Source of the DNA: a virus
DNA: 40,449 nt
IMG/VR virus record: IMGVR_UViG_3300045988_160722
Strand: one strand, 5' to 3'
Part shown: positions 1 through 6,916 of the stretch, piece by piece
Layout of the letters: every line of letters starts with the position of its first letter
How positions within the stretch are numbered: position 1 is the first letter of the stretch
Made by a program: the position numbers and the translations under genes
The notes under the pieces: generated by a model
The model's database searches: none
Seen by the model: only the letters and a program-made list of their open reading frames with translations
Told to the model about the DNA's origin: nothing

Positions 1-55
1 GCTTTAATATCAACATTGGTGTGATTTTGTAACATTGAACCTCCTAAGAAGTGTA
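1..55. repeat. Left copy of perfect 55-nt terminal direct repeat (attL core candidate, or circular-contig overlap)
   Basis: gctttaatatcaacattggtgtgattttgtaacattgaacctcctaagaagtgta is identical to 40395-40449. It lies next to the integrase gene. Confidence 0.85.
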
Positions 56-65
56 GAATAATAAA

Positions 66-100
66 GAAAGCCCTGTAGCAGTAGTGCTACAGGGCTTTTA
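66..100. terminator. Bidirectional rho-independent terminator downstream of int
   Basis: 10-bp stem GCCCTGTAGC (70-79) / GCTACAGGGC (86-95) with a 6-nt loop. An A-run precedes it and a T-run follows, so it can work on either strand. Confidence 0.7.
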
Positions 101-120
101 TGTGTGGCTATTAAACTTAA

Positions 121-140
121 GAAGGGACAAAAAAGGGACA
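121..140 (+). promoter_or_regulatory. Tandem pair of putative integrase arm-type binding sites
   Basis: GAAGGGACA (121-129) and AAAGGGACA (132-140), 11-bp phasing. The same motif pair recurs at 40294-40313 on the other side of the 55-nt repeat. Confidence 0.45.
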
Positions 141-143
141 GTT

Positions 144-1301
144 TTATTCAAAATTTTGTATAGCTTCATCGAATTCTAAGTGTTGTTTATGGGTAACGTG
201 TAAATAAATTTTTCTTGTAATATCAGAATTGGCATGACCAACTCTATCGGTAATTAAACTTAATGGATATCCTTCCTCTGCAAGTTTGGAAACGTGAGTA
301 TGACGGAAGATATGTGAAGTAGCTTTCTTCTTCCACTTCTGTTCATTTACAAACTCTCTTAGAAATCTACTTACAGCTGATGTATTTATCGGTCCATTAG
401 TATTACTGTATTTATTATGAAATAGGAAATCATTAGAGTTTTGTCCCTTAGAAAACTCTTTATATATCACAACTGCTTCTTTAGGCAAAACAATAGTTCG
501 TTGGCTAGAGGATGTTTTGGTAAACTCTTGTCTTTCATTCCGATGTCCTTCAGTACTAATTAAAGTGCCTGAAATATTAACATACCATAGCTTTGTTTCT
601 TTATCTTGAAATATATTCTTTACGAGCACCCCACATCCTTCTCCTACACGCATACCAGTAAGGTATAGCATTTTGAATAAAGCATAAAAATCAGTTCTCT
701 TTTTTTCTAAACAATGGTTAAATAATTTGCTCAGTTCTTTATCGGTAAGATACCAGTTTTCTACTCGATCTTGCTTCTTAGCACGTTCATTTTTAAAATT
801 AATTTTTACTTTTAAAGCTGGATTCTTTTTTGCATACCCAAATTGAATTGCAAAATCAAAAAGTTTTGTAAAAACCACATGATATTTATGTGCAGTAGCA
901 TTAGATAATTCATCTTTATAAAGAAGATTATTAATGTATGTATTAAGTTCAATAGTAGTAATAGAATCAGCCGATCTTTTTCCGAAAGTCCTAGAAATTT
1001 TACTAAGGCAAGCAAAGTAAGTATCTAAAGTTTTAGGTGCTAAGCCCTGATTAGACATATTAGTTTGTAAATCTTCAATAAGTTTATTCATCGTAATTTG
1101 TTTAATAGATTGAATATTTAACTTATCTTGGATCATCTTTTTGACTTTCACATCAGCTAAATTTCGAGCCTTAGCAGTGTTTTTTGTAATCGTGGTAGAA
1201 CTTTTGTGCACACCAACAAAAGAGGGATCAGTATATCTAATTGAATATTTAAACTTACCATTCTTTAAAGGTTCTACTTGAGGAGTATAATATTTGACCA
1301 T
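144..1301 (-). CDS. int: Tyrosine recombinase, phage integrase
   Basis: 385-aa ORF with the C-terminal catalytic signature HIFRHTHVSKLAEEG...GHANSDITRKIYLHVT (R, H-x-x-R, H, Y). SD AGAGGT upstream. Adjacent to the att-like repeat. Confidence 0.95.
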   Translation of the reverse strand: MVKYYTPQVEPLKNGKFKYSIRYTDPSFVGVHKSSTTITKNTAKARNLADVKVKKMIQDKLNIQSIKQITMNKLIEDLQTNMSNQGLAPKTLDTYFACLSKISRTFGKRSADSITTIELNTYINNLLYKDELSNATAHKYHVVFTKLFDFAIQFGYAKKNPALKVKINFKNERAKKQDRVENWYLTDKELSKLFNHCLEKKRTDFYALFKMLYLTGMRVGEGCGVLVKNIFQDKETKLWYVNISGTLISTEGHRNERQEFTKTSSSQRTIVLPKEAVVIYKEFSKGQNSNDFLFHNKYSNTNGPINTSAVSRFLREFVNEQKWKKKATSHIFRHTHVSKLAEEGYPLSLITDRVGHANSDITRKIYLHVTHKQHLEFDEAIQNFE

Positions 1302-1509
1302 TTTAAAATTACCTCTATTTCTGATAAAATAGGGTATGCAAAAAGCATTTTTTCTTTCTAGGTTAAATGTTTAATATCAGCCAATCAGCAAACCCGTGAA
1401 GTGTTACCAGCGCTTTGCGGGTCTTTTTTTATTGCTTGGCTTGATATTAGACTGTAGCATATAATTTTGAATAGCGGTACGGTAATCAAAATTCTGCTAG
1501 AATATGAGT

Positions 1510-1576
1510 TAGGATCACGTGTGCCCAGTTTTGGGCTAGGCTTGTAAGATAATTAATATCTTGCGAGTCTTTTTTA
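1510..1576 (+). ncRNA. Candidate small RNA (extended -10 promoter plus intrinsic terminator)
   Basis: TGCTAGAAT extended -10 at 1495-1503. Hairpin GCCCA/TGGGC at 1523-1536. An 11-bp stem (1541-1551 / 1557-1567, two G-U pairs) is followed by TCTTTTTT. No ORF. Confidence 0.25.
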
Positions 1577-1629
1577 TTATTAAGCTGCGCGATCGGGACG
1601 AGCGCGCAGCTAGGGCGCCCGCGGTCAGA

Positions 1630-1695
1630 TTATCTCTTGTTGATTTCGTGAATCAAAAGAAGTAAGATGATTAATGTAATAATTGTTTGGTTCAT
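1630..1695 (-). CDS. 21-aa hydrophobic peptide, type I toxin-like (MNQTIITLIILLLLIHEINKR)
   Basis: ATG at 1695 with GGAGG SD 8 nt upstream. One hydrophobic helix plus a charged tail. The SD lies within an imperfect inverted repeat, and the ORF is bracketed by a 12-bp GC-rich inverted repeat. Below the ORF-track size cutoff. Confidence 0.4.
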   Translation of the reverse strand: MNQTIITLIILLLLIHEINKR

Positions 1696-1813
1696 GTTTG
1701 TCACCTCCGAGTGACATGGGCACAGCTTGCTGTGCTAAACTCAGGAGAGTGACATAACATGAAAGAGCGGGCGCCCTAAGAGCTTTTAACTTCTAGGGAT
1801 GCCTGCTTTTTTT
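1675..1813 (+). ncRNA. Candidate cis-antisense RNA covering the SD/start of the 21-aa ORF (antitoxin-like)
   Basis: TTGATT (1640-1645)-N17-TAAGAT (1663-1668) promoter-like element on the + strand. A long imperfect hairpin (1766-1807) followed by a T7 run forms an intrinsic terminator. Confidence 0.3.
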
Positions 1814-1856
1814 ATTTCAGCTTTTATAGTCGCCAGCCGTTTAGACTAAGTTTAAT

Positions 1857-2837
1857 TTATTTACTTAAAAAATCAGCATTGAGTTCTGCTTGATTACAAA
1901 TAAACTCTTTTTCATCAGGATAAAGTTCAAGATATCTTTTAATGTAAAAACTAATACCACCACTTAGCTCATTGTATGCGGTTCGATCTTGTGAAAATTC
2001 TAATGTATTAATTAATGTACCTAGACGACTTTGACCTTTACCATTTCTATAATCAGCTGGTGAAATTTTAAGAAGACCATGGATTATAGGATTATATGGA
2101 ATTGCATGCTTTTTAGAAAAATGATTATAGATTCGTCCACCATGTGCTGATGTGTTTCTATAGTCTAAGTATAAAGATAGCAAGTTAACATATCCTTGTT
2201 CAAAAGCATTAATCTGCTGTAACAATGCCTCATCTAATCCTGTCATACGAGAAGTTACACTTCTTTTTTGTGGAGTTTTAAGAAGTCTGTACCACCAAAT
2301 TAAATTTCCAAAGTTAAGTTTCTTAACAATTATCCAAGGTGGAATGTTATGGTGATCATTTCGGTAGTGGCTATATGGTTCAGACTTAGCATGCGTAATA
2401 CCTTTTAGAATACTTAGCAGAGCATCAATAGGATAAACCATTTTATGAAGGGATTTATTGTATTGCTTTTTACCTGTAACGTAATTTTTTCGGTTTAAAT
2501 ATATTGTTTGGTCTTCAGATATTTGTTCTGCTACTGTATATGCTAATGCCTGTCTTAGGTTAGCTTCAAAAATTTCGATAGCAGACATAACTTCAGATCT
2601 TATTTTTCTATCTAAAGTAAATAATTGAAAAATATGTTCAAAAGTAATTCCAGCCTTGAATTTGTCTTCTGAATCTAATGGATTAGCTAAAAAACAGTCT
2701 TTATAGCCATTAATAATTTCATAATAGCCGTAACTCAATAAATCTTTTTTGGCTGCTTCTTTATTTTGAAATAACAGACCACGTTGTTCTAGTAATTCTA
2801 TTTGTTTATCAATAGTTAAAAAAGGTTTGGTATTCAT
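1857..2837 (-). CDS. Abi_2 family abortive-infection protein (AbiD/AbiF/AbiD1-like)
   Basis: The N-terminus MNTKPFLTIDKQIELLEQRGL...SYGYYEIINGYKD matches my recollection of the Abi_2 family. Start set to ATG 2837 (GGAGAA SD). The longer track ORF would run into a hairpin. Confidence 0.7.
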   Translation of the reverse strand: MNTKPFLTIDKQIELLEQRGLLFQNKEAAKKDLLSYGYYEIINGYKDCFLANPLDSEDKFKAGITFEHIFQLFTLDRKIRSEVMSAIEIFEANLRQALAYTVAEQISEDQTIYLNRKNYVTGKKQYNKSLHKMVYPIDALLSILKGITHAKSEPYSHYRNDHHNIPPWIIVKKLNFGNLIWWYRLLKTPQKRSVTSRMTGLDEALLQQINAFEQGYVNLLSLYLDYRNTSAHGGRIYNHFSKKHAIPYNPIIHGLLKISPADYRNGKGQSRLGTLINTLEFSQDRTAYNELSGGISFYIKRYLELYPDEKEFICNQAELNADFLSK

Positions 2838-2853
2838 TTTAATTCTCCAACAC

Positions 2854-2887
2854 AAAAAGGACATGTATCAAAACACATGTCCTTTTT
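2854..2887 (-). terminator. Terminator-like hairpin in the 5' leader of the Abi gene
   Basis: 13-bp stem AAAAAGGACATGT (2854-2866) / ACATGTCCTTTTT (2875-2887). On the minus strand a U5 run follows it, and it ends about 15 nt before the Abi SD. Confidence 0.55.
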
Positions 2888-2926
2888 GGTACGACCGCAC
2901 AGCGGTCACTTAAATTGATTAACTAA

Positions 2927-2956
2927 ATCTTATCAGGTAAAAGGGCAATGTGTCAA
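2927..2956 (-). promoter_or_regulatory. Candidate promoter for the Abi gene
   Basis: Minus strand TTGACA (2956-2951)-N18-TAAGAT (2932-2927), with TGn immediately upstream of the -10. Confidence 0.5.
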
Positions 2957-3094
2957 TCAAAAATGTATTTTTTTATACATTTTTGTAACTAGTAAGTTGA
3001 ATTGTATTCTTTTTATACAATTTCCTAATAGTCTAAAAAGAAAATAATTTTTCTTTTCATTTTCATTCTCCATGACCGTCCGAGAGGGCGGTTT

Positions 3095-3496
3095 TTATTT
3101 TGCAACATATTTCAAAAGCTCTTCACGAACTTCGTCAAAATTGTTAATGCCTAGACCAACGGCAATATTTACGTAATTTGCTTCATCTGGTTCATTACCT
3201 AATGCTACATATTGTTTGATTTTTTCGTGAACCATGAAATTATTAGCTCCATGTTCACTGCAAGAATGGGCTGAACCAATATATTTATAATTTCCCACAA
3301 TTGAGGGATCATTCTTTGCGTGTCCAATTTCGTGTAAGATGACCTTTTCTGTCTCTTCATCAGATAGTCCTTCTTTAACCATTAAGAGGTCAGGAAAGCT
3401 AGCGGGAGTTCTAACAATGCATCCCTTTTCGTGGGAAGGACCATATTGAAGATGCAAATTGTATTTTTTAAGCAAGTATATTAAGTGACTATCCAT
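3095..3496 (-). CDS. ImmA/IrrE-like zinc metallopeptidase
   Basis: HEIGH (HExxH) motif, small size. It lies directly downstream of and co-oriented with the XRE repressor. ATG 3496 preferred (AAGGTGA SD) over GTG 3505. Confidence 0.75.
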   Translation of the reverse strand: MDSHLIYLLKKYNLHLQYGPSHEKGCIVRTPASFPDLLMVKEGLSDEETEKVILHEIGHAKNDPSIVGNYKYIGSAHSCSEHGANNFMVHEKIKQYVALGNEPDEANYVNIAVGLGINNFDEVREELLKYVAK

Positions 3497-3511
3497 AATA
3501 CTCACCTTGAA

Positions 3512-3853
3512 TTATTTATTAAGAAGGGCGTTTAAATATTGCCTAATAAGTTCACGGTCATGGTCATCTAGTGGCTTGCCATCGTAAGAGTGGGCATTGT
3601 CTAGCATTTCGTCTAAATCAGCTTCTGTTACTGTAGGCTTGTCAGGGATGCTTGGGTCGTCAGTTCTACCTAAAAGATAATCGGTAGTAGTGTCAAATAA
3701 ATTGGCTACTTTCTCAACCTTATCAATTGATGGATTACTCTTTTTCCAAGTAGAAATAATTCCATTTGAAAAGCCTAATTTTCGTTCTAATTCTGCTAGA
3801 CTCATTTTTTTAAGCGCCGTTAAATCCGTGATACGACTATAAAGCACCGACAT
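3512..3853 (-). CDS. XRE-family HTH repressor (CI-like / ImmR-like)
   Basis: N-terminal HTH LAELERKLGFSNGIISTWKKSN..VEKVANLFDTTTDYLLGR. Divergent from the cro-like gene. SD GGAGGT. Confidence 0.85.
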   Translation of the reverse strand: MSVLYSRITDLTALKKMSLAELERKLGFSNGIISTWKKSNPSIDKVEKVANLFDTTTDYLLGRTDDPSIPDKPTVTEADLDEMLDNAHSYDGKPLDDHDRELIRQYLNALLNK

Positions 3854-3890
3854 TTTTAGATTACCTCCGAAAATATTTTATAAAATTATA

Positions 3891-3919
3891 TTGACGCCGA
3901 ATATTATCGGTGCTATATT
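3891..3919 (+). promoter_or_regulatory. Early lytic promoter candidate with operator in the spacer
   Basis: TTGACG (3891-3896)-N17-TATATT (3914-3919) with TGc extended -10. The near-palindrome CCGAATATTATCGG (3897-3910) fills the spacer. Confidence 0.6.
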
Positions 3920-4004
3920 ATAAATGTGCTTGAGATAAGCACAGAAAAAAAGCTATTTTTTTGCACCGAGTATTTGATAATAACGGGCTATTTAGTACGC
4001 TCTT

Positions 4005-4033
4005 ATAATAGAATATTTTCGGCATTAATGCAA
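4005..4033 (-). promoter_or_regulatory. Candidate repressor-side promoter (face-to-face with the lytic promoter)
   Basis: Minus strand TTGCAT (4033-4028)-N17-TATTAT (4010-4005). Half-site GCCGAAAATATT lies in the spacer. Confidence 0.4.
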
Positions 4034-4083
4034 CAGGAATAGTTTATTTTCTAAGAAAATATTTTATTGTGAGGTGAAAGCGA

Positions 4084-4287
4084 ATGTCATTATATACGGC
4101 TATCAAAGAGGTAGCACATAAAAATGGAAAATCTATTTATCAAATTGAACGTGATTTGAATTTATCAAATGGATTAATCAGCAAGTGGAACAAAAACATG
4201 CCGAGAGCAGATTACTTACAAGATGTAGCTGATTACCTAGGTACAACTACACAATACTTGTTCTATCTGTCACGTAAAGATAAATAA
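4084..4287 (+). CDS. Cro-like XRE-family HTH regulator
   Basis: 67 aa. HTH IYQIERDLNLSNGLISKWNKN...VADYLGTTTQYL. SD GAGGTGA. First gene of the rightward operon. Confidence 0.8.
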   Translation: MSLYTAIKEVAHKNGKSIYQIERDLNLSNGLISKWNKNMPRADYLQDVADYLGTTTQYLFYLSRKDK

Positions 4288-4306
4288 GCAGGAAGGAGTG
4301 TTCGAT

Positions 4307-4495
4307 ATGGATGAAACAATGATTGAAATTAATGCCGTGATTGATCAATTAGCATCTAAATTAATTCAAAAAGATGAATTTGATTACGACATTAAAGATG
4401 CACTTATTTCAATGCTAGAAGCAAAGGAAAATTATTCACTAGCATTAAAAAAGCCAAAACTAGAAAATAATCTAGTTTTGACTAGTCAAGATTAA
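4307..4495 (+). CDS. Hypothetical protein
   Basis: ATG 4307 with GGAAGGAG SD 8 nt upstream (the track uses GTG 4298). Acidic, helical. Confidence 0.55.
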   Translation: MDETMIEINAVIDQLASKLIQKDEFDYDIKDALISMLEAKENYSLALKKPKLENNLVLTSQD

Positions 4496-4647
4496 TGATT
4501 AGATGATTTCACCTGGCTTAAAACACGCTTATAAATTCTAAAATACTCAGTTACCGCAGACAACGAAGTATTAGAAGTATTTTTCTTTTGAGCACTTGCT
4601 ACAGCCAAGGCAACAGCTATATCATGAGCGATTTGTTCATCTGTCAT
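4492..4647 (-). CDS. Hypothetical 51-aa protein on the minus strand (MTDEQIAHDIAVALAVASAQKK...)
   Basis: Below the track cutoff. Strong SD GGAGGTG 7 nt before ATG 4647. The stop overlaps the converging + ORF by 4 nt. Confidence 0.5.
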   Translation of the reverse strand: MTDEQIAHDIAVALAVASAQKKNTSNTSLSAVTEYFRIYKRVLSQVKSSNH

Positions 4648-4706
4648 AAAATTCACCTCCATTTACAGGATGAATTAATTATATCTCATAGAAAGGAATG
4701 CTTATT

Positions 4707-5432
4707 ATGGTAAATAATCTTCAATTATTTAAGTTTGAAGGGAAAGAAGTTAGAACTTTAGAAGTTAATGGTACACCTTGGTTCGTAGGAAAAGATTTGA
4801 CCAATATATTGGGATATAAAAATGGATCAAGAGATATTAATTCTCACGTTGATGAAGAAGATAAGCTGAGGTACCAAATCAGTACCGCAGGTCAAATGAG
4901 AGAGCAAATTCTTGTTAACGAATCAGGAATGTTTAGCTTAATTCTTTCAAGTCAATTACCCAGCGCTAAGAAATTTAAGCATTGGGTAACAAGTGAAGTT
5001 CTTCCAGCCATTCGCAAGACTGGATCATATCAATTACCACAAACACCAGAAGAGCGTTTGAAACTAGCAATGGAAGCTACCATTCATTTGGACGAGCGAA
5101 TGACTAACGTAGAAAAAGATGTTGATTTTATTAAAAATACATCTGAAATTGATTCAAGCCAACGATTTAAGCTGCGAAAGGCAAGAGATAGAAAATCGGT
5201 AGAAGTTTGCGGCGGTAAGAAGAGTAATTTTTACAAAAATAAAAATAAAAGACGCAAAGTTTTTCGTCAGTTAGAGCATGATTTCAAAGACTCGTTTGTA
5301 ATTTCAAGATATGAGGATTTATCAAAGAAAGACTTTGATCGAGCAATTAATTTTATTAGTAATTGGTATCCATCATATCCGCTACAACAGGATATTCAAC
5401 AAATGAATGCACAGACTGATTTAAACCTATAA
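4707..5432 (+). CDS. Phage antirepressor (BRO N-terminal domain plus ORF6C-like C-terminal domain)
   Basis: LQLFKFEGKEVRTLEVNGTPWFVGKDLTNILGY...NESGMFSLILSSQLPSAKKFKHWVTSEVLPAIRKTG is a typical BRO-N. ATG 4707 has better SD spacing than 4698. Confidence 0.8.
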   Translation: MVNNLQLFKFEGKEVRTLEVNGTPWFVGKDLTNILGYKNGSRDINSHVDEEDKLRYQISTAGQMREQILVNESGMFSLILSSQLPSAKKFKHWVTSEVLPAIRKTGSYQLPQTPEERLKLAMEATIHLDERMTNVEKDVDFIKNTSEIDSSQRFKLRKARDRKSVEVCGGKKSNFYKNKNKRRKVFRQLEHDFKDSFVISRYEDLSKKDFDRAINFISNWYPSYPLQQDIQQMNAQTDLNL

Positions 5433-5715: not shown

Positions 5716-5943
5716 CTATCTCTTGAAGTTACCTGCAATCGTAGCAACGTCAGTAGCCTTAAACTTGTTTGCAAAGGATGAGGCAAATGGCATTTCCTTG
5801 TTAAAGTTAAATGTCATTGCGCTCATTCCCTTCATATTATCAAACTTAGTATTAATCTTAGTTGCTAAATGATTTTGTTCATGTAAGTTTTTAGCAATTT
5901 GTGCAGTGTTAATACCTTCAAACTTAAATGCTGGTTTCTTCAA
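5716..5943 (-). CDS. Doubtful hypothetical ORF
   Basis: 75-aa ORF with a TTG start and no convincing SD. It sits in a ~550-bp stretch otherwise lacking good ORFs. Confidence 0.25.
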   Translation of the reverse strand: MKKPAFKFEGINTAQIAKNLHEQNHLATKINTKFDNMKGMSAMTFNFNKEMPFASSFANKFKATDVATIAGNFKR

Positions 5944-6222
5944 TTTGTTACCGCTAAAGCTTTTTATCCTTAGCCTCTACAAGTTTCCTAGTAGTTCAGC
6001 ATATATGTTCAACTCAAAGAGTTGCTGGGCGCTCGTGGGTTAAAAAATAAACCTATGCGTTGCACTTTCTTCAAATTAGAAGTTTAGCTCAGAGTTGCCA
6101 TGCCCTATGGTTTAGTTTTTCTCTGAATTCACCCAGTACAAAAGATGATTCGCATCATCAATGGGCAACTGAAAATATTATAACACAGTATATCGTGGGA
6201 ACAAAGGTGCGAGATACAAAAT

Positions 6223-6432
6223 ATGTGGAATGAAATTGAAAAAATCTTAAAAGAAAAACATATGTCAATATATCGTTTAGCTAAGGAAAGCGGAGTTAAC
6301 GAGAACACATTACGCAATTATAAAAAGAATTATTCGAATCCTGACGGTGTTGATCCGAGTTTTAAAAATGTATGCAAAATTGCTGATGCTTTGAATGTTT
6401 CTCTTGATGATTTACGAGACAAAGAAAGGTAA
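6223..6432 (+). CDS. XRE-family HTH DNA-binding protein
   Basis: MSIYRLAKESGVNENTLRNY...CKIADALNVSLDDL is a classic HTH_XRE pattern. 69 aa. Confidence 0.7.
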   Translation: MWNEIEKILKEKHMSIYRLAKESGVNENTLRNYKKNYSNPDGVDPSFKNVCKIADALNVSLDDLRDKER

Positions 6433-6473
6433 CCGACAAAGGCCAGCAATACTTTATTAATAAGTTTTTGAGA

Positions 6474-6497
6474 GATGAGGAAGAGTAAATGAAAAGA
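6474..6497 (+). repeat. Copy B of the junction repeat (GATGAGGAAGAGTAAATGAAAAGA)
   Basis: The 16-mer is exact. It extends to 24 nt with one mismatch versus copy C. Here TAAATG forms the start of the 6489 ORF. Confidence 0.8.
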
Positions 6498-6671
6498 TAC
6501 ACAGTGACATCTAAGCCTATTGAAGCAACTGAAACACTTAAACAAATTCCAATAGCTAAAGAAGTTATTGCTGTTTTAAGAAGCCATGATCTTAATTATG
6601 AAGATGCAAAAAAAGCACTTGATTGTGCAAACCAAGTACTTTTGAATTATTTGCTTGACAAAAAGATTTAG
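6489..6671 (+). CDS. Hypothetical protein
   Basis: 60 aa. GAGGAAGAG SD-like sequence (part of the junction repeat) lies 8 nt upstream of the ATG. Confidence 0.5.
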   Translation: MKRYTVTSKPIEATETLKQIPIAKEVIAVLRSHDLNYEDAKKALDCANQVLLNYLLDKKI

Positions 6672-6916
6672 TTGTTATTAAGCCAATCTTTTACGTTTTG
6701 TCCAGCATTTTTAGTTTTCTCTTGTTCTTTTTGATACTCAGCATATTGTTCAGCATTAGCACCGACTACATAGCTCGTTTCATAGTCAGCTGGTTCATCT
6801 GAATTTACTAATTTAGTACCTACATGAAGAAGCGTCCAACCCTTTTGTAGATGTTCATTAGCGTGCTCGTTTGAGTAAATATCATCAAATTCAAGAGTAA
6901 AAACAATGTTTTTCAT
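6668..6916 (-). CDS. Hypothetical protein, minus-strand accessory gene (cassette 1)
   Basis: 82 aa. AAGGAG SD. Preceded by the conserved 34-nt leader R1. Confidence 0.6.
   Translation of the reverse strand: MKNIVFTLEFDDIYSNEHANEHLQKGWTLLHVGTKLVNSDEPADYETSYVVGANAEQYAEYQKEQEKTKNAGQNVKDWLNNN

What the first reader, a model, noticed from the sequence alone, without database searches (positions are those of the whole stretch)
1857..2956. Prophage-encoded Abi_2 (AbiD/AbiF-like) gene behind a terminator-like leader
The 326-aa minus-strand gene has the characteristic Abi_2 N-terminus and sits in the lysogeny module, which is typical of prophage-borne defence against heterologous phages. A candidate promoter (TTGACA-N18-TAAGAT with TGn, 2956-2927) is followed by a leader of about 80 nt with two hairpins. 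The second hairpin is a 13-bp stem plus U5 (2887-2854) ending about 15 nt before the SD. It would terminate or mask most transcripts. In Lactococcus, abiD1 expression is known to be held off by mRNA structure and switched on by a phage protein. This leader could be an analogous infection-triggered switch.
Basis: partly seen in the sequence, partly recalled or inferred. Interest (0 to 1): 0.6.

Follow-up and report, generated by a model that had tools for sequence, protein, structure and literature searches.

The report
Prophage AbiF toxin with RNA antidote
A Lactobacillus prophage carries a known kind of anti-phage "suicide" RNase gene (AbiF/Abi_2 family), and the hairpin "leader" in front of it is most likely a separate small RNA gene that makes the toxin's antidote; this toxin/RNA pairing was worked out in 2025, so this is a new example, not a new mechanism.

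Summary
A 326-aa minus-strand ORF (2837-1857) is a clear Abi_2/AbiD-F protein with an intact HEPN motif (RNTSAH). Its only significant solved-structure match is PbAbiF bound to its ncRNA (PDB 8VZ6).

The interpretation needs changing. The "leader" behaves as a conserved small-RNA gene, not a regulated attenuator. Promoter, RNA (~2920-2850), terminator and gene move together as a ~1.18-kb cassette (2983-1807). The RNA is more conserved than the coding sequence. Hairpin 1 shows compensatory changes, and a 13-nt 5' tail is nearly invariant. No antiterminator fold exists. 46 of 47 homologue loci examined have a terminator hairpin just before the start codon.

This matches the published AbiF type III toxin-antitoxin design (PbAbiF-AbiFr, AbiFCd-RCd22, lactococcal AbiD1). 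The RNA does not match Rfam abiF (RF03085), although a phiC2 positive control does. Two orphan RNA copies without the toxin gene exist elsewhere.

The scan already holds about 49 notes mentioning AbiF with an ncRNA in other genomes.

Verdict: new member of a known kind, with modest interest.

The parts
2927..2956 (-). Sigma-A type promoter of the module: -35 TTGACA (2956-2951), 18-nt spacer, TG (2935-2934), -10 TAAGAT (2932-2927)
   Evidence: Consensus scan gives 10/12 with TG. The -35 TTGACA and a -10 at the same distance from the RNA start are conserved in homologues although the spacers differ.
2850..2920 (-). Predicted ~67-71-nt small RNA, the candidate AbiF-type RNA antitoxin. The start at about A2920 is inferred, 7 nt after the -10. 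The 3' end lies in the U-tract 2858-2854.
   Evidence: Covariance model R1 matches 2849-2920 at 93.4 bits and finds only one copy in the window. The RNA is 75-96% identical to homologues, against 64-80% for the CDS and about 50% for the flanks.
2908..2920 (-). Conserved single-stranded 5' tail AAUCAAUUUAAGU
   Evidence: Twelve of its 13 positions are invariant across 10 sequences whose proteins are down to 52% identical, and the seventh is nearly so. It is recognisable as AAUCAAnUUAAAU in homologues of about 40% identity. It is predicted unpaired in the terminated RNA.
2893..2907 (-). Hairpin 1: GACCGC-UGU-GCGGUC (6 bp, -9.8 kcal/mol)
   Evidence: 100% paired, with 3 of 6 pairs changed on both sides in A1. 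In the 14-sequence alignment A4 it is 89% paired against 60% in shuffles, with a covariation score of 0.789 against 0.219 and 0.05-0.27 for slid controls.
2854..2887 (-). Hairpin 2: intrinsic terminator. The core is GGACAUGU...ACAUGUCC, extended by A5/U5 to 13 bp plus wobble pairs, at -17.6 kcal/mol. It is symmetric and so potentially bidirectional.
   Evidence: Fold results. 96% paired, with 3 pairs changed on both sides. A terminator hairpin lies within 60 nt of the start codon in 46 of 47 homologue loci.
2843..2848 (-). Shine-Dalgarno GGAGAA, 5 nt upstream of the AUG
   Evidence: Read directly from the sequence. It is conserved in close homologues.
1857..2837 (-). abi gene: a 326-aa AbiF/AbiD-family (Abi_2) HEPN protein, the candidate RNase toxin
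   Evidence: Pfam Abi_2 E=1.5e-33. PADLOC AbiD E=9.5e-39. PDB 8vz6_A by sequence, E=3.9e-9. The AF2 model has pLDDT 91.5. Foldseek returns 8vz6_A as the only significant hit, E=4.2e-8, TM 0.64/0.70. The exact sequence occurs on 550 public contigs.
2142..2159 (-). HEPN catalytic motif R-N-T-S-A-H (residues 227-232; RphixxxH)
   Evidence: R227, N228, A231 and H232 are invariant in the 16-sequence alignment A3. The motif aligns with RNSCCH of PbAbiF. The motif is as defined in PMC12373285.
1807..2983 (-). Extent of the mobile cassette: promoter, RNA, terminator, abi and about 50 nt of 3' tail
   Evidence: blastn homology to L008 and L015 runs 2983/2964 to 1807 and stops there, with unrelated flanks. 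In phage vB_Lga_AB1 the slot 1818-3054 holds other genes.

Best explanation
This is an AbiF-type (AbiD/F, Abi_2) type III toxin-antitoxin / abortive-infection cassette carried as a moron in the lysogeny module of a Lactobacillus gasseri-group temperate phage.

Proposed mechanism:
- A strong constitutive promoter (2956-2927) starts transcription at about 2920.
- Most transcripts stop at the intrinsic terminator (2887-2854). This yields an abundant ~67-nt RNA made of a conserved single-stranded 5' tail, a 6-bp hairpin and the terminator hairpin.
- A minority of transcripts read through and are translated from the SD at 2848-2843 into a 326-aa HEPN RNase.
- The small RNA binds the HEPN protein and blocks its active site. 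By analogy with PbAbiF, this would be one RNA per monomer of a dimer.
- The terminator sets a large excess of RNA over protein.
- When a superinfecting phage disturbs this balance, the RNase is freed and arrests the cell, which protects the lysogen population. The disturbance could be transcription shut-off, RNA decay or a trigger protein. The same logic can make the prophage addictive.

Shown here:
- Family membership of the protein, its HEPN motif, and its fold match to PbAbiF-ncRNA.
- The RNA's conservation and covariation, and its co-mobility with the gene.
- The same promoter-RNA-terminator-gene architecture across homologues.

Inferred: that the short RNA exists and is abundant, that it binds and neutralises the protein, that the protein is toxic, and that the cassette has anti-phage activity and a trigger.
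For: Protein:
- Abi_2 at E=1.5e-33 and PADLOC AbiD at E=9.5e-39.
- Sequence hit to 8vz6_A, E=3.9e-9, with RNTSAH aligned to RNSCCH.
- AF2 pLDDT 91.5. Foldseek against PDB gives a single significant hit, 8vz6_A 'PbAbiF dimer bound to ncRNA', prob 1.00, TM 0.64/0.70 over 315 columns.
- R227, N228 and H232 are invariant.

RNA:
- One R1 hit in the window (2849-2920). R1 also finds the region directly upstream of homologues of about 40% identity (L237, L239, L241, L242; E 1e-4 to 4e-3).
- Covariation in hairpin 1 and in the terminator.
- RNA 75-96% identical against CDS 64-80% and flanks about 50%.
- Cassette boundaries at 2983-1807.
- Terminator within 60 nt of the start in 46/47 homologue loci. 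Promoter and terminator in order in 37/47, against 20/176 control ORFs.
- Same layout in Streptococcus phage phi5218.
- No competing antiterminator fold.
- Orphan RNA copies persist without the gene.

Literature:
- AbiFCd-RCd22 has one promoter, a leaky terminator, an RNA that neutralises the toxin in cis and in trans and binds the protein, and loss of toxicity in R/H mutants (PMC12373285).
- In PbAbiF-AbiFr, the ncRNA blocks the HEPN site (PMC13064643, PMC12737573).
- abiD1 makes a 50-nt transcript that stops at a terminator just before the gene (PMC2661086).
- Lactococcal abiF and abiD-like showed antiphage activity only when cloned with their own upstream promoter and terminator, as reported earlier for abiD1 (PMC11381338).
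Against: - There is no expression, binding, toxicity or plaque data for this locus.
- The RNA does not match Rfam abiF RF03085 even at E<=10 in a 141-nt search, whereas phiC2 does at 37.6 bits. RNA homology to the characterised antitoxins is therefore not shown, only the same architecture.
- There is a single RNA copy, not the two motifs of RCd22 or the tandem repeats of ToxI.
- The TSS is inferred from the promoter.
- A purely cis role for the RNA cannot be excluded from sequence alone.
Confidence: 0.75

Rival explanations
1. The leader is a purely cis-acting attenuator or translational switch. The terminator, or a structure masking the SD, holds abi off, and a phage-encoded factor relieves it on infection, as Orf1 does for abiD1 translation. 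The short RNA has no function of its own.
For: The terminator sits in the 5' UTR, 5 nt before the SD. In abiD1, translation is activated by phage Orf1 and by cold, through an RBS-sequestering stem-loop (PMC2661086). RCd22 also lowers abiFCd expression in cis (PMC12373285).
Against: No alternative antiterminator pairing appears at any transcript length. Only weak U-rich pairing touches the SD in the read-through form. The 5' tail and hairpin 1 are conserved with compensatory changes, although termination does not need them. The RNA is more conserved than the CDS. Orphan RNA copies persist without the gene. abiD1 full-length mRNA does not rise on infection, and removing its terminator did not raise expression (PMC2661086).
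Confidence: 0.12
2. Hairpin 2 is simply the terminator of the upstream cI-ImmA operon or an insulator between cassettes, and hairpin 1 is incidental. The abi gene is expressed only by read-through or from a weak internal promoter (TTGATA-18-GAGAAT, 2871-2842) as a leaderless mRNA.
For: The hairpin is symmetric (A5 and U5 on either side), so it could stop transcription from both directions. The scan lists TTGATA-N18-GAGAAT at 9/12.
Against: Homology with cassettes in unrelated contexts begins upstream of the -35 at 2983/2964, so the promoter and RNA belong to abi and not to ImmA. Downstream of the ImmA-like ORF's stop, the only terminator-like hairpin the scan reports is on the + strand (3074-3093). 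The internal TTGATA lies in the terminator loop, which differs in homologues such as L017, L018 and L020.
Confidence: 0.05
3. The cassette works mainly as a prophage-stabilising addiction module or stress-responsive toxin-antitoxin, not as a defence against other phages.
For: Saunier et al. could not demonstrate anti-phage activity for AbiFCd and raise prophage maintenance as a possible role (PMC12373285).
Against: Lactococcal AbiD, AbiD1 and AbiF give measured phage resistance (PMC13064643, PMC11381338). The slot between integrase and ImmA holds different accessory genes in a related phage, which is typical of defence morons. This rival concerns biological role and is compatible with the same molecular mechanism.
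Confidence: 0.08

Closest known systems
PbAbiF-AbiFr (Prevotellaceae AbiF with its ncRNA; PDB 8VZ6; Zilberzwige-Tal et al., Cell 2025, as summarised in PMC12737573 and PMC13064643)
   Same: It is the only significant solved-structure relative, by sequence (E=3.9e-9) and by fold (E=4.2e-8, TM 0.64/0.70). The HEPN R-x4-H motifs align. A short cis-encoded ncRNA lies directly upstream of the gene.
   Different: About 20% identity. Dimer formation and RNA binding are untested here.
AbiFCd-RCd22 of C. difficile phi027/phiC2 prophages (Saunier et al. 2025, PMC12373285; RNA = Rfam RF03085 abiF)
   Same: Prophage-borne. One sigma-A promoter drives a short RNA that ends at a leaky Rho-independent terminator, with the Abi_2 gene expressed by read-through. 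No separate promoter for the gene. RNxxxH HEPN motif.
   Different: Protein about 23% identical. RCd22 carries two RF03085 motifs, each a hairpin with a conserved asymmetric internal loop GCUCAAAU. The window RNA has one simple 6-bp hairpin preceded by a conserved single-stranded tail and does not match RF03085. AbiFCd lies in the lysis module, and this gene lies in the lysogeny module.
Lactococcal AbiD1 / AbiD / AbiF / AbiD-like (AbiD/F group; PMC2661086, PMC11381338, PMC13064643)
   Same: Same protein family, from lactic acid bacteria. A strong promoter drives a ~50-nt transcript that stops at a terminator just before the gene. The upstream region is more conserved than the gene and is required for function.
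   Different: Those systems are plasmid-borne. abiD1 has an additional RBS-sequestering stem-loop and activation by phage Orf1 or cold, for which there is no counterpart evidence here. I could not fetch the lactococcal leader sequences for direct comparison.
ToxIN / AbiQ-antiQ (classical type III toxin-antitoxin)
   Same: A promoter, an RNA antitoxin, a terminator and a toxin gene in that order, with the terminator setting the antitoxin:toxin ratio. Abortive-infection role.
   Different: The toxin fold is unrelated (ToxN/AbiQ, not HEPN). The ToxI and antiQ antitoxins are tandem repeats processed by the toxin, whereas this RNA is a single copy with no repeats.
Cas13 (type VI CRISPR effectors)
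   Same: HEPN RNase held in check by a bound hairpin RNA. AbiF is the proposed ancestor (PMC12737573).
   Different: No CRISPR array, no spacer and a single HEPN per chain. Foldseek gave no significant Cas13 hit.

Membership tests
[quoted passage not shown] | Match to the Abi_2 profile above the gathering score | tested here: met
   117.1 bits against a cut-off of 25.6, E=1.5e-33, profile positions 3-184 of 184. PADLOC AbiD E=9.5e-39.
[quoted passage not shown] | HEPN catalytic motif R-phi-x-x-x-H (phi = N/H/D) | tested here: met
   RNTSAH at residues 227-232. R, N and H are invariant in 16 homologues. The motif aligns with RNSCCH of PbAbiF.
[quoted passage not shown] | AbiF fold | tested here: met
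   The AF2 model (pLDDT 91.5) hits 8vz6_A only, at prob 1.00 and TM 0.64/0.70.
AbiF-type type III toxin-antitoxin (protein toxin + cis-encoded ncRNA antitoxin) | Short structured RNA gene immediately upstream, with its own promoter and a terminator before the toxin ORF, and no separate promoter for the toxin | tested here: met
   Met by sequence prediction only: promoter, hairpins, conservation and covariation, and the architecture in 46/47 homologue loci.
AbiF-type type III toxin-antitoxin (protein toxin + cis-encoded ncRNA antitoxin) | The short RNA is actually made and outnumbers the read-through mRNA | not testable with these tools
AbiF-type type III toxin-antitoxin (protein toxin + cis-encoded ncRNA antitoxin) | The protein is toxic, and the RNA binds and neutralises it in trans | not testable with these tools
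   This needs expression, co-purification or EMSA experiments.
AbiF-type type III toxin-antitoxin (protein toxin + cis-encoded ncRNA antitoxin) | Confers phage resistance (abortive infection) | not testable with these tools
   This needs plaque and ECOI assays.
Rfam abiF RNA (RF03085) | Match to the 37-position covariance model at or above 37 bits | tested here: not met
   No RF03085 hit in window 2820-2960 even at E<=10, nor in related records. Positive control: phiC2 scores 37.6 and 19.5 bits for its two motifs.
Classical type III toxin-antitoxin (ToxIN/AbiQ) | Antitoxin made of tandem direct repeats | tested here: not met
   No repeat array in 1700-3200 beyond trivial short ones. The RNA model finds a single copy.

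The most novel reading that the evidence does not exclude
The window RNA may define an uncatalogued class of AbiF antitoxin RNAs in Lactobacillaceae (and perhaps Streptococcus) prophages. The class would have a conserved single-stranded 5' tail (AAUCAAnUUAAGU), a variable 6-bp hairpin and the terminator, and it does not match RF03085. The copies that persist without a toxin gene may not be scars. One is stacked in front of a different Abi_2 module (L131) and one lies on a L. johnsonii plasmid record (L266). They could be kept as spare antitoxins or decoys that give cross-immunity against incoming AbiF cassettes of the same class.
Probability: 0.2. Interest if true: 0.5.

Novelty: new member of a known kind. 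Interest (0 to 1): 0.3.

Why it matters
- It assigns a likely function to an unannotated ~70-nt RNA gene in a very common L. gasseri-group prophage. The exact protein sequence occurs on 550 public contigs.
- It corrects the annotation: the "5' UTR" is probably the second component of a two-part defence system.
- It has a practical consequence. Cloning the abi ORF without its upstream 130 nt should be toxic or inactive, as was found in Lactococcus.
- It shows that Rfam's abiF model covers only part of the RNA partners of Abi_2 genes. Every Lactobacillaceae, Fusobacterium and Streptococcus locus examined has the same promoter-RNA-terminator layout but a different RNA sequence.
- That variety is useful raw material for studying how AbiF proteins and their RNAs co-evolve, the step proposed to have led to Cas13 guide RNAs.
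- The mechanism itself is not new.

Tried and rejected
1. Rfam. Nothing relevant in window 1-5000 or in the leader alone at E<=10. The weak hits to ncr1015 and Ref64 only reflect the terminator. RF03085 was also absent from 30 homologue loci and 5 viral records.
2. Riboswitch-like antitermination. Stepwise folding shows hairpin 1 and then the terminator with no competitor, so I rejected it.
3. Pairing of the 5' tail (AUCAAU) with AUUGAU at codons 9-10 in the read-through fold. The tail and those codons do not co-vary in L008 and L015, so I treated it as chance.
4. Internal promoter TTGATA-18-GAGAAT giving a leaderless mRNA. It is not conserved.
5. ToxI-like repeats. None found.
6. A second inverted copy of the hairpin at the stop codon, as earlier scan notes describe for other subfamilies. 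R1 finds none in the window.
7. The exact 16-mer scans of the viral and metagenome collections mostly returned chance matches or an unrelated marine-virus hairpin. Only near-identical cassettes, L051 and L131 were informative.
8. Public RNA-seq.
9. Fetching pIL105 (abiD1, AF116286) for a direct leader comparison. It is not in the collections.
I used the family of the L. johnsonii genome G007 instead.
Full report
**Observation**

An ORF from A2837 to the stop at 1857 encodes 326 aa. It matches Pfam Abi_2 (PF07751) at 117 bits against a gathering score of 25.6, E=1.5e-33, covering profile positions 3-184 of 184. It also matches PADLOC's AbiD model at E=9.5e-39. NCBIfam has no model for it.

Upstream lie TTGACA (2956-2951), an 18-nt spacer ending in TG, and TAAGAT (2932-2927). 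Next come a 6-bp hairpin GACCGC-UGU-GCGGUC (2907-2893) and a 13-bp A5/U5-extended hairpin (2887-2854), followed by GUGUU and the SD GGAGAA (2848-2843). The leader folds at -32.3 kcal/mol (z=-4.9; 0 of 200 shuffles fold as well).

The only correction is that the U-tract ends 5 nt before the SD (16 nt before the AUG), not 15 nt before the SD. The tool's terminator scan missed hairpin 2, probably because it extends the stem into the U-tract. Promoter-like sites are not enriched in this region (12 against 12.5 expected), so the promoter rests on conservation (see "The leader is a conserved RNA" below).

**Context**

The window is a Lactobacillus gasseri-group temperate phage. Integrase (144-1301), an ImmA-like HEIGH protein (3095-3505), a cI-like HTH (3512-3853) and a cro-like HTH (4084-4287) form the lysogeny switch.

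Phage vB_Lga_AB1 shares the integrase region (99.5%), a 240-bp stretch at 1580-1817 and the switch. Between 1818 and 3054 it carries other genes, including a DUF2513 protein. The abi unit is therefore an exchangeable accessory cassette in a variable slot.

**The protein**

phmmer against all PDB chains gives one hit, 8vz6_A, at E=3.9e-9 over residues 4-239, with RNTSAH (227-232) aligned to RNSCCH. 8VZ6 is the cryo-EM structure of PbAbiF bound to its ncRNA (PMC12737573).

An AlphaFold2 model built on 16 homologues has mean pLDDT 91.5 and pTM 0.87. Foldseek against the PDB returns a single significant match, "PbAbiF dimer bound to ncRNA" (E=4.2e-8, prob 1.00, TM 0.64/0.70, 315 columns). The next hit has E=0.47.

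R227, N228, A231 and H232 are invariant across homologues down to 23% identity. They fit the HEPN RphixxxH motif, whose R and H are required for AbiFCd toxicity (PMC12373285). The exact protein sequence is found on 550 public contigs.

**The leader is a conserved RNA that travels with the gene**

I fetched homologous loci from viral contigs, GTDB genomes and 401 Lactobacillaceae genomes.

In close relatives (52-81% aa identity; L. johnsonii, L. rodentium, L. hamsteri, L. agrestimuris, Lactobacillus sp. LL6, Limosilactobacillus equigenerosi), homology with the window starts just upstream of the -35 (2983/2964). It ends about 50 nt after the stop codon (1807), and the flanks are unrelated.

Across these relatives the RNA segment is 75-96% identical to the window's. 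The CDS is 64-80% identical and the flanks about 50%. The -35 TTGACA is invariant while the spacer changes, and the -10 keeps the same distance from AAUCAA, which places the start near A2920.

Twelve of the 13 positions of the 5' tail (AAUCAAUUUAAGU) are invariant, and position 7 is nearly so.

Hairpin 1 changes by compensation: GACCGC/GCGGUC becomes GAUCGC/GCGAUC, GGUUGC/GCGACC and GGUUGC/GCAACC. It is 100% paired, with 3 of 6 pairs changed on both sides. The terminator is 96% paired with 3 such pairs.

A covariance model of the 10 sequences (R1) finds exactly one forward copy in the 40-kb window (2849-2920, 93.4 bits). It also detects the region directly upstream of Abi_2 genes only about 40% identical (L237, L239, L241, L242; E 1e-4 to 4e-3).

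Adding those and similar leaders gives a 14-sequence alignment. In it, hairpin 1 is 89% paired against 60% in column shuffles. There are 24 doubly changed cells against 6.5, and the covariation score is 0.789 against 0.219, with 0.05-0.27 when partners are slid.

**Generality of the layout**

I examined 47 Abi_2 loci from Lactobacillaceae, Fusobacterium, Peptoniphilus, Phascolarctobacterium and Acetatifactor, plus Streptococcus phage phi5218 and C. difficile phage phiC2.
- 46 have a hairpin plus U-tract within 60 nt of the start codon.
- 37 also have a TTGACA-type promoter upstream of it, against 20 of 176 control ORFs in the same loci.

The RNA sequences fall into several unrelated-looking subclasses. 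All share the design of promoter, short tail, hairpin, terminator and SD.

**Not a regulated attenuator**

Folding the nascent transcript at ten lengths shows hairpin 1 and then the terminator forming with nothing competing. In the read-through form only weak U-rich pairing touches the SD.

- a 50-nt transcript ends at a terminator just before the gene;
- full-length mRNA does not increase on infection;
- removing the terminator does not raise expression.

Lactococcal abiF and abiD-like showed antiphage activity only when cloned with their own upstream promoter and terminator, as had been reported for abiD1 (PMC11381338).

In 2025 the upstream RNA was shown to be a type III antitoxin that binds AbiF and blocks its HEPN site. 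This was shown for PbAbiF-AbiFr and for C. difficile AbiFCd-RCd22, where the RNA acts in cis and in trans (PMC12373285, PMC13064643, PMC12737573).

**Relation to the catalogued RNA**

Rfam's abiF model (RF03085; 37 positions; gathering score 37 bits) is not matched by the window leader even at E<=10 in a 141-nt search. It is also not matched in any of the homologue loci tested.

As a positive control, the region upstream of abiF in phage phiC2 gives 37.6 and 19.5 bits for the two RCd22 motifs.

RF03085 is a hairpin with a conserved asymmetric internal loop (GCUCAAAU). The window RNA is a plain hairpin with a conserved single-stranded 5' tail that contains UCAAU. Both share a UCAA(A/U)U element, but I regard that as a lead only. 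There are no ToxI-like repeats.

**Orphan copies**

Two loci carry the window-type RNA without its gene.
- In metagenome contig L131, homology to the window covers 2984-2842 only. It is followed by a second promoter, a different hairpin RNA and a different 379-aa Abi_2-like ORF next to an integrase.
- On L. johnsonii G2A record NZ_CP040855.1, an R1 match of 73.6 bits has a decayed SD and no ORF, and lies upstream of a RelBE pair.

In Limosilactobacillus equigenerosi the gene is frameshifted while the RNA keeps compensated pairing.

These cases fit an RNA with value of its own, or recombination at the RNA/gene junction. They do not prove either.

**Verdict**

The best explanation is an AbiF-type type III toxin-antitoxin / abortive-infection cassette whose "leader" is the RNA antitoxin gene, with a constitutive leaky terminator setting the RNA:protein ratio (confidence 0.75).

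Nothing about transcripts, binding, toxicity or defence could be tested.

The scan's notebook already holds about 49 notes mentioning AbiF together with an ncRNA in other genomes, and the mechanism is published. I therefore rate this a new member of a known kind, with an RNA class that Rfam does not cover.

Noticed in passing
L131 6885-7181 (minus strand), with the ORF at 5741-6880: A window-type promoter and RNA (R1 92.9 bits) lacks its own abi gene. It is stacked directly in front of a second promoter, a different hairpin RNA and a different 379-aa Abi_2-like gene (HEPN RNTLAH), next to an integrase. This gives two antitoxin-type RNAs in tandem before one toxin.
   Followed up: partly
L266 1806-1877 (= NZ_CP040855.1 about 87480-87559, L. 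johnsonii G2A): Orphan copy of the window-type RNA (R1 73.6 bits). It has an extended -10, a decayed SD and no abi ORF, and lies upstream of a RelB/RelE pair. It is either a scar or a retained antitoxin.
   Followed up: partly
window 1495-1815: A 21-codon hydrophobic ORF (MNQTIITLIILLLLIHEINKR, about 1694-1629, minus) has its SD buried in a stem, GC-rich complementary segments at both ends of the putative mRNA (about 1786-1770 and 1622-1608), and convergent plus-strand promoter and terminators (1436-1465; 1392-1422; 1538-1570). This layout is like a type I toxin-antitoxin. The scan already has a note on it (e1-3781937).
   Followed up: no
window 3074-3093 (+ strand): A terminator-like hairpin works only on the + strand, because its G-U pairs become A-C on the minus strand. 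It has a U-tract running into the 3' end of the ImmA-like gene. No + strand gene is evident between 2960 and 3074 that it would terminate. Variants in L002-L007 keep the pairing (CCGUCC-GAAA-GGGCGG).
   Followed up: no
window 2964-2979 and 3003-3019: Two TGTAT-N6/7-ATACA palindromes lie upstream of the -35 (also noted as e1-3781939). The proximal one lies inside the region homologous to L008 (TGTATACAAAATACA) but is replaced by other AT-rich dyads in L015 and L016. It could be an operator or an UP-like element.
   Followed up: partly
L021 (Limosilactobacillus equigenerosi), abi at about 2992-3964: The abi gene is split by a frameshift into two pieces (residues 3-126 and 122-322). The upstream RNA keeps a fully compensated hairpin 1 (GGUUGC/GCAACC).
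   Followed up: partly
L028, L034, L070, L071, L074, L075 and about 12 more viral and metagenome contigs: An unrelated conserved element was picked up by the 16-mer scan: ...GGCUCUCCAGGAGCUUAAUCAAUUUAAGUGGGGGAAAnnnUUUCCCCCACUUA..., a strong hairpin in a set of environmental viral contigs. The shared 16-mer with the window RNA is probably coincidence.
   Followed up: no
L264 470-600 (Streptococcus phage phi5218) and 38 Streptococcus phage or satellite records: Abi_2 homologues (27-43% identity) are common next to the integrase end of streptococcal prophages and satellites. phi5218 shows the same TTGACA-17-TACAAT promoter, tail, GCUCCC/GGGAGC hairpin and terminator before the gene. None of the RNAs is annotated.
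   Followed up: partly
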